The position numbers were made by a program, and so were the translations under genes. From positions 10,339 to 74,338 of the forward strand of contig UQTB01000006.1 in NCBI GenBank assembly GCA_900543915.1: 64,000 nt of DNA, in the 5' to 3' direction. Positions within the stretch are counted from its first letter, which is position 1. Each line of letters begins with the position of its first letter. The DNA is from an uncultured Eubacteriales bacterium. GTDB lineage: Bacteria > Bacillota > Clostridia > Christensenellales > Borkfalkiaceae. The notes under the pieces are model-generated. The model was not told the origin of the DNA, did not search any database, and was given only the letters and a program-made list of their open reading frames with translations. Below are positions 37,737 through 38,738 of the stretch, piece by piece.

Positions 37737-38738
37737 TTACCTCAATGTAATTTCATTGCCGAACAGTTCGTCCAGAACGGCGAGTGCTTTCGTGTGAAAG
37801 GCGGAAAGGTCTAAATCGGGTTCGTCTTCCGAAAGATCGGGTTCTTCGATGTCGCCGTCAAATTCGCGCATCTGCGCTTCGGAGAGTATCTCGCCCGTTT
37901 CTTCGTCGATCTGTTCTTGCGGTCGTTTTTCGATAGCGCGAACGTCGTCGGGCGTTTCGCATACCGCCAGCTTGTAGCCTTTTTCCGTCAGTCGGTTTAT
38001 GTAGTTATCCGCCGCGTGGTACGGAAAGCCGATCATCGGCACGCGCTCTTTCAGTCCGCAGTCCCGCCCCGTAAGGGTAAGATCGAGTTCTTTTGCAAGC
38101 CTCACGGCATTGTCGCCGAATACCTCGTAAAAGTCGCCTAAACGGTAGATTACAACGCTGTCGGGATATTTCCTTTGTATATCCTGATAATTTCGGTATA
38201 AAGGCGAGCCCGCAGGCTTCGGCTCTTGAACTGTTTTCTTTTCTTCCTCGGCGAGTTCCGCGAGGATCTCCTGTATTTCTTCCTCGGTCGGCTCGTCGTC
38301 CTCGCATTCTTCGGAAGGCGTATTCTGCGCAGGCTCGTCCAAAAGGTCGAACATCGACATCTGCGGTTTCGGCTGCGGCTTGGGCGGTGTCTGTTTTGGC
38401 GCAGGAGTTTTCGGAACGGGCTTTTTGTATTCCTTGCCGTCCTCGGTATAGAGCGTGCCTTCGATGCTGTCCTCCTCGAAATAATGTACCGCCCAGCCGA
38501 ATACTACGCTGTCCTCGATGCACGCCGACGATGAACCTTTCTCGGCTTGCTTCCTCGCTTCGTCACAGGCGTACTGCATAAAGCCGTCCAAAGTCTTTTT
38601 GCTCAAAAGCGTTTTGCCGTCTTTTTCAATGCGCACGTCGTTGTTAATTTTCTCGGCGAGGATTTCACTGACGTTTTCTTCAAGATACTGTTTCACAAGT
38701 TCCTGTGAATTCGTTTTCGTTTCAAGATTGAGTTTCAT
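37737..38738 (-). CDS. Fusion protein: N-terminal PcfK-like domain + acidic/Pro-rich linker + C-terminal MutS domain I (mismatch-recognition domain) homolog
   Basis: Residues about 165-245, [84 protein letters not shown], align position by position with E. coli MutS 11-95 ([49 protein letters not shown]...[28 protein letters not shown]), including the GxFYE Phe/Glu mismatch-contact motif. No ATPase domain is present. Confidence 0.7.
   Translation of the reverse strand: [333 protein letters not shown]

What the first reader, a model, noticed from the sequence alone, without database searches (positions are those of the whole stretch)
37737..38738. Mobile-element protein fusing a PcfK-like domain to a stand-alone MutS mismatch-recognition domain (domain I) with no ATPase
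The C-terminal ~85 residues ([37 protein letters not shown]...[28 protein letters not shown]) align colinearly with E. coli MutS residues ~11-95. Roughly 30 positions are identical or conservative, including the GDFYE motif that holds the mismatch-intercalating Phe and the Glu. The connector, lever, clamp and ABC ATPase domains are all absent. The N-terminal ~95 aa look like PcfK, a family linked to conjugative elements and, as recalled from the literature, to the Cas9 inhibitor AcrIIA9. A DNA-lesion or mismatch-binding module on a short acidic-linker protein in a plasmid/ICE-type operon (small protein, then this protein, then PcfJ) suggests an anti-host or establishment function. One possibility is a decoy that competes with MutS on incoming heteroduplex DNA; another is a DNA-end or mismatch sensor. 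I know of no described example of this domain combination.
Basis: partly seen in the sequence, partly recalled or inferred. Interest (0 to 1): 0.78.

Follow-up and report, generated by a model that had tools for sequence, protein, structure and literature searches.

The report
PcfK protein carrying MutS mismatch domain
A leftover mobile-element gene in a gut Clostridia chromosome encodes a small acidic protein that joins a PcfK/AcrIIA9-type domain, a predicted sliding-clamp-binding peptide and a captured copy of the MutS mismatch-recognition domain; the family is very common in gut bacteria, has never been studied, and probably helps incoming elements cope with host DNA surveillance.

Summary
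ORF 37737..38738(-) encodes 333 aa. It has a PcfK domain (Pfam 33.5 bits, cut-off 27) and a MutS domain I (E 9e-27), and no other MutS domain. AlphaFold2 and Foldseek place residues 176-270 on MutS domain I. The mismatch-reading Phe-x-Glu is kept in about 98% of 182 relatives.

Three things are new here:
- The disordered linker holds a conserved Q-x-S-L/M-F-D peptide that matches the beta-clamp-binding consensus QL[S/D]LF. It occurs in 196 of 231 relatives against 12.7 expected by chance. It also sits at the C-terminus of pCF10 PcfK and of 121 of 122 Lactobacillales AcrIIA9-family proteins.
- MutS_I is an optional insert. Shorter relatives without it occupy the same operon slot.
- The gene sits in a conserved small-gene array (ArdA, DUF6809, DUF7222), then PcfK, then PcfJ, at one end of tRNA-Ser-integrated elements of gut Clostridia. 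The window keeps only a 2,651-bp, three-gene remnant.

MutS-I domains on mobile-element proteins were described in 2017 (Iyer et al.), so this is a new variant of a known kind. Best mechanism (inferred): a clamp-tethered binder of mismatched or distorted DNA that shields element DNA from host MutS/MutL or competes with them. Nothing was tested biochemically.

The parts
37737..38738 (-). Whole gene: 333-aa PcfK - clamp-binding-like motif - MutS domain I - acidic tail protein (pI 4.4)
   Evidence: ORF; Pfam; identical protein on 167 contigs; charge
38424..38738 (-). Residues 1-105: PcfK-like globular N-domain (Pfam match res 20-93 = nt 38460-38681); most conserved part of the family
38364..38423 (-). 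Residues 106-125: Pro/Lys-rich basic disordered linker ([20 protein letters not shown], pI 10.6)
   Evidence: the same kind of K/P/T-rich linker precedes the motif in plasmid PcfK proteins
38346..38363 (-). Residues 126-131: QMSMFD, predicted beta-sliding-clamp (DnaN) binding motif (consensus QL[S/D]LF / QxxLF)
   Evidence: Q126, S128, F130, D131 invariant in A1. Q, F and D ~90% conserved inside an otherwise variable linker. Present in 196/231 relatives vs 12.7 in shuffles. Consensus taken from PMC12309361. Homologous position in pCF10-type PcfK holds QIDLF/QLDLF/QISLF/QLSLL
38214..38345 (-). Residues 132-175: acidic disordered spacer (17 D/E in res 134-175), one low-confidence helix 152-171
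37929..38213 (-). Residues 176-270: MutS domain I (mismatch-recognition domain); GDFYE = res 201-205 = nt 38124-38138
   Evidence: GDFYE in 168, GDFFE in 10 of 182 relatives chosen by HMM, not by motif. R225/P234/M235/G237/P239 correspond to E. coli R58/P67/M68/G70/P72 by the ungapped alignment; all are invariant in A1 except M235, which is nearly invariant
37740..37928 (-). Residues 271-333: acidic disordered tail with conserved D-x-E-T-G-E-I-L (res 278-285), MREFDGD (res 290-296) and C-terminal AF(D)xxALxxLxELFGxEIxLR
   Evidence: the tail is also present in relatives that lack MutS_I
36400..37731 (-). PcfJ-family gene (443 aa), 5 nt downstream; conserved partner of PcfK
   Evidence: Pfam E 2.1e-30. 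Directly downstream in 64/74 relatives' loci, and in pCF10 and five other Firmicutes plasmids
38735..38995 (-). DUF6809-like small gene (86 aa), stop overlaps the start of the PcfK-MutS_I gene
36352..39002 (.). Three-gene cassette, 100% identical over 2,651 bp to an intact element in another genome (L002). Ends inside the next gene (C2, truncated to 14 codons, 36343-36384, minus strand)
   Evidence: blastn; sequence
40212..40300 (-). tRNA-Ser(TGA), integration site of the element family; 21-nt copy of its 3' end at 40031-40051
   Evidence: the same tRNA lies 2.5-6 kb upstream of the gene in L012, L014, L023, L025, L045

Best explanation
The gene is a leftover of the early, counter-defence/establishment operon of an integrative element of gut Clostridia that inserts at tRNA-Ser. 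Its product belongs to the PcfK/AcrIIA9 family.

The architecture is shown: a ~100-aa PcfK globular domain, a basic disordered linker, a QxSLF peptide, an acidic spacer, a captured MutS domain I, and an acidic tail with a conserved C-terminal helix.

Proposed mechanism (inferred):
- The QMSMF peptide docks the protein onto the host beta sliding clamp (DnaN). That clamp is loaded on the element's DNA when its complementary strand is made or when the element replicates.
- The clamp supplies the topological hold on DNA that real MutS gets from its clamp and lever domains.
- The tethered MutS domain I, with its Phe-x-Glu wedge intact, then binds mismatches or other distortions such as heteroduplex, imperfect hairpins or recombination joints.
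- This occupies both the site and the clamp that host MutS/MutL need, because Firmicutes MutS and MutL both depend on DnaN (established knowledge, from memory). Locally that blunts mismatch repair or its anti-recombination effect on element DNA.

The PcfK domain and the PcfJ partner carry the family's core function, which is still unknown. MutS_I is an add-on that some lineages have lost.
For: - Architecture and fold.
- The Phe and Glu of GDFYE are kept in ~98% of 182 relatives. DNA-backbone-contact equivalents (R58, P67, M68, G70, P72 in E. coli numbering) are invariant or nearly invariant. MutS_I residues 176-249 are nearly as conserved (0.60) as the N-domain (0.67), against 0.25-0.33 for the linkers. 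This indicates purifying selection on a working DNA-reading surface.
- Clamp motif: Q-x-[ST]-[LMI]-F occurs in 196/231 relatives against 12.7 expected in shuffles; the strict form occurs in 191 against 2.5. It sits 36-44 aa after the N-domain and matches the published consensus QL[S/D]LF/QxxLF (PMC12309361).
- The same motif follows the same kind of basic linker in the type protein pCF10 PcfK (EQIDLFECV*), in Vagococcus (QISLF*), S. salivarius (QLDLF) and E. faecium (QLSLL), and in 121/122 Lactobacillales AcrIIA9-family proteins.
- Context: same-strand array with ArdA (27 loci), DUF7222 and DUF6809 upstream; PcfJ downstream in 64/74 loci; orphan N6 and C5 methyltransferases and rolling-circle Rep genes nearby. 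In L008 the array sits at the very end of the element, next to host genes.
- The MutS_I domain is closest to Firmicutes MutS (up to 53% identity), which fits capture from a host.
Against: - No binding or phenotype was tested. Clamp binding rests on a short linear motif only.
- The clamp-like motif is equally present in relatives that lack MutS_I, so it serves the PcfK core function and is not specific to mismatch repair.
- MutS_I appears to have been lost about 20 times on a rough tree, so it is dispensable.
- An isolated domain I may bind mismatches only weakly. In MutS the DNA is held by two subunits and the clamp domains (established knowledge).
- It is unclear why an element that integrates by site-specific recombination would gain from blocking mismatch repair.
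- The N-domain fold could not be assigned.
- In this window the gene sits in a decayed remnant, and the simple scan found no convincing promoter upstream of it.
Confidence: 0.35

Rival explanations
1. ssDNA or structured-DNA 'escort', as Iyer et al. 2017 proposed for MutS-I in polyvalent proteins. The MutS_I domain binds unpaired or mismatched stretches of the entering or rolling-circle single strand, for example imperfect hairpins of single-strand origins or ssDNA promoters. The protein protects or marks that DNA, or helps recruit the clamp and polymerase for complementary-strand synthesis. It has no effect on host mismatch repair. The conserved C-terminal tail could be a transfer signal or a PcfJ-binding peptide.
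For: - Literature precedent (PMC5512222).
- Elements carry rolling-circle Reps: REP_ORF2-G2P in 12 loci and Viral_Rep in L097.
- ArdA is in the same array.
- The clamp motif would fit recruitment of the replisome to a primed single strand.
- The conserved tail is independent of MutS_I.
Against: - About 80% of the polyvalent-protein MutS-I domains come with ArdC-N. No ArdC-N domain is found here.
- The residues that are conserved are those that read a mismatch within duplex DNA (Phe wedge, Glu), not a generic ssDNA-binding surface.
- No conjugation machinery recognisable by Pfam was found in the elements.
Confidence: 0.3
2. Targeting module for an anti-nuclease. The PcfK domain is the effector; AcrIIA9, a PcfK-family protein, blocks Cas9 DNA binding and cleavage. 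MutS_I, with the clamp motif, only concentrates it on element DNA or at distorted sites such as R-loops or nuclease-bound DNA.
For: - AcrIIA9 carries the PcfK domain (PMC6739104) and is reported to prevent Cas9 binding and cleavage (preprint 10.64898/2026.08.04.741601).
- The anti-defence context includes ArdA.
- The N-domain is the most conserved part and MutS_I is optional.
Against: - The match to PcfK is modest (33.5 bits).
- AcrIIA9 homologues occur mostly in genomes without matching type II-A self-targeting spacers, so anti-Cas9 may not be the native role of the family.
- No evidence here that the host lineage has Cas9.
- It does not explain why the mismatch-reading residues stay invariant.
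Confidence: 0.15
3. Clamp poison or regulator. The QxSLF peptide is the functional core, used to compete with host polymerases or repair factors in general. MutS_I is a passenger with no specific DNA role.
For: The motif is family-wide, including in proteins of ~150 aa that have little else. Mobile-element proteins that bind the clamp are known, for example IS transposases (PMC4549789).
Against: - Strong residue-level conservation of MutS_I, including Phe/Glu, in ~98% of members argues against a passenger.
- Integrated elements with up to three copies per genome are unlikely to poison replication.
Confidence: 0.1
4. Decaying pseudogene-like relic with no function in this genome.
For: The window keeps only a 2,651-bp cassette of the element. 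The next gene is truncated to 14 codons, and neighbouring DNA holds chimeric fragments.
Against: All three ORFs are intact and 100% identical to those of an intact element. The identical protein is seen on 167 contigs. This bears only on activity in this host, not on what the protein is.
Confidence: 0.1

Closest known systems
MutS (MutS1) mismatch-repair ATPase, domain I (PF01624)
   Same: Residues 176-270 have the domain I sequence and fold, including the GDFYE Phe-x-Glu wedge and backbone-contact residues. Identity is 39.6% to E. coli and up to 53% to Firmicutes MutS.
   Different: No connector, core/lever, clamp, ATPase or dimerisation domains. The last ~20 positions of domain I are divergent (Pfam 2-91/113; conservation 0.29). 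The domain is embedded between disordered acidic segments of a 333-aa mobile-element protein.
PcfK / AcrIIA9 family (PF14058; type protein PcfK of Enterococcus faecalis pCF10)
   Same: Same globular domain (profile 7-73, against 2-73 for pCF10 PcfK). Same basic linker followed by a QxxLF peptide. Same immediately downstream PcfJ gene. Same kind of element context with ArdA.
   Different: The motif is internal, not C-terminal. It is followed by a ~200-aa extension (acidic spacer, MutS_I, ETGE motif, C-terminal helix) that plasmid PcfKs lack. No BLAST-level similarity to any PLSDB plasmid. The family is confined to gut Clostridia chromosomal elements.
MutS-I-containing polyvalent proteins of phages and conjugative elements (Iyer, Burroughs, Anand, de Souza, Aravind 2017)
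   Same: A MutS-derived domain I deployed by Firmicutes/Bacteroidetes mobile elements without the ATPase, with a predicted role on the element's DNA soon after entry.
   Different: Those are large proteins with 2-15 domains, ~80% of them with ArdC-N and often with a metallopeptidase. Here the protein is small, has no ArdC-N, and is fused to PcfK with a clamp-binding-like peptide. PcfK is not mentioned in that paper.
Clamp-binding-motif proteins (PolC QLSLF, DnaE QMGLF; from memory also E. coli MutS QMSLL and B. subtilis MutS QLSFF; IS transposases)
   Same: A pentapeptide that fits QL[S/D]LF/QxxLF, lies in a disordered region or at a terminus, and is conserved while its flanks vary. Mobile-element proteins that bind the clamp are known (PMC4549789).
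   Different: Binding is not demonstrated. The third and fourth positions vary (S/T/D/K; L/M/I).
ArdA/ArdC-type establishment (leading-region) proteins
   Same: Encoded in a same-strand array of small genes at one end of the element together with ArdA. Very acidic (pI 4.4).
   Different: No sequence or fold relation to ArdA or ArdC. Early expression and transfer are not shown.

Membership tests
MutS family (MutS1 mismatch-repair ATPase) | Domain I with Phe-x-Glu mismatch-binding motif | tested here: met
   Pfam MutS_I E 9.4e-27; GDFYE aligned to E. coli F36/E38; fold match
MutS family (MutS1 mismatch-repair ATPase) | Connector, core/lever and clamp domains (II-IV) | tested here: not met
   No Pfam MutS_II/III/IV hits. 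The NCBIfam MutS models match only positions 2-91 of 793-840, at 105 bits against cut-offs of 480-642. The protein is only 333 aa
MutS family (MutS1 mismatch-repair ATPase) | ABC-type ATPase domain V with Walker A | tested here: not met
   No MutS_V hit; PDB alignments stop at MutS residue ~108-114
PcfK / AcrIIA9 family (PF14058) | Match to the Pfam model above the gathering score | tested here: met
   33.5 bits vs 27, residues 20-93, profile 7-73; pCF10 PcfK itself covers only 2-73
PcfK / AcrIIA9 family (PF14058) | Gene immediately followed by a PcfJ-family gene | tested here: met
   Window; 64/74 related loci; pCF10 and five other plasmids
PcfK / AcrIIA9 family (PF14058) | Basic linker followed by a QxxLF peptide (a feature noticed here, not part of the published definition) | tested here: met
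   QMSMF at res 126-130 after [20 protein letters not shown]; plasmid PcfKs
PcfK / AcrIIA9 family (PF14058) | Inhibition of Cas9 (the activity that gave AcrIIA9 its name) | not testable with these tools
   Literature only
Polyvalent proteins with MutS-I (Iyer et al. 2017) | MutS-I domain on a mobile-element protein without the MutS ATPase | tested here: met
Polyvalent proteins with MutS-I (Iyer et al. 2017) | Co-occurrence with ArdC-N and/or catalytic domains (metallopeptidase, methylase, helicase) in one large polypeptide | tested here: not met
   Only PcfK and MutS_I detected at E<=0.01 in 333 aa
Beta-clamp (DnaN) binding proteins | Pentapeptide fitting QL[S/D]LF / QxxLF in an accessible, disordered region, conserved among homologues | tested here: met
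Beta-clamp (DnaN) binding proteins | Physical binding to the hydrophobic cleft of DnaN | not testable with these tools
   No complex prediction or assay available
Counter-defence / establishment gene arrays of integrative or conjugative elements | Same-strand array at an element end with known anti-restriction genes | tested here: met
   ArdA in 27 loci, orphan methyltransferases, array abutting host genes in L008. In the window itself only the three-gene remnant is left
Counter-defence / establishment gene arrays of integrative or conjugative elements | Early expression after entry, or transfer with the DNA | not testable with these tools
   -

The most novel reading that the evidence does not exclude
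PcfK/AcrIIA9-family proteins as a whole are clamp-riding effectors: they use a C-terminal or internal QxxLF peptide to load onto DnaN on newly made element DNA. The gut-Clostridia branch has added a captured MutS domain I. That would make it the first mobile-element-encoded, clamp-tethered antagonist (decoy) of MutS/MutL mismatch repair, one that promotes establishment or homeologous recombination of incoming elements.
Probability: 0.2. Interest if true: 0.8.

Novelty: new variant of a known kind. Interest (0 to 1): 0.55.

Why it matters
PcfK/AcrIIA9 and PcfJ are among the most widespread gene pairs on conjugative plasmids and integrative elements of Firmicutes and Bacteroidetes, and their native function is unknown. 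A family-wide clamp-binding peptide would give them a concrete, testable cellular address: the sliding clamp on freshly synthesised DNA.

The Clostridial branch adds an intact mismatch-reading module. If it competes with MutS/MutL, it would be a natural inhibitor of mismatch repair carried by mobile DNA. That bears on how diverged elements recombine and spread in the gut microbiome. It could also be useful as a tool, for example for transient MMR suppression in recombineering of Gram-positive bacteria. The family is abundant (more than 7,000 database proteins, at least 209 species genomes), so any function would be ecologically relevant.

Tried and rejected
- Plasmid (PLSDB) and phage (INPHARED) searches with the full protein and with the N-domain. 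Only true MutS genes and one full-length hit turned up. That hit, MT835493.1, proved to be a chromosomal fragment carrying host genes and an Ssp-like cargo, not evidence for a phage.
- IMG/VR scan: one true relative only. A tailed-phage origin was rejected.
- Typing the element. The Rep, the 710-aa membrane/P-loop protein and the ~450-670-aa protein with a C-terminal membrane segment gave no Pfam, PHROG or PDB sequence hits apart from REP_ORF2-G2P. I considered an inovirus-like prophage (gene order resembles gIII-gVI-gI) and a Tn916/pCW3-like conjugative module. Neither could be supported.
- The afdb50 library was unavailable.
- PcfJ: no PDB relative. The literature search was swamped by C. 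elegans pCFJ plasmids.
- My first census of the GDFYE motif selected sequences by the motif itself. I redid it with an HMM-based selection.
- The low-GC stretch at 60-62 kb was checked as a possible second island. It holds ordinary genes.
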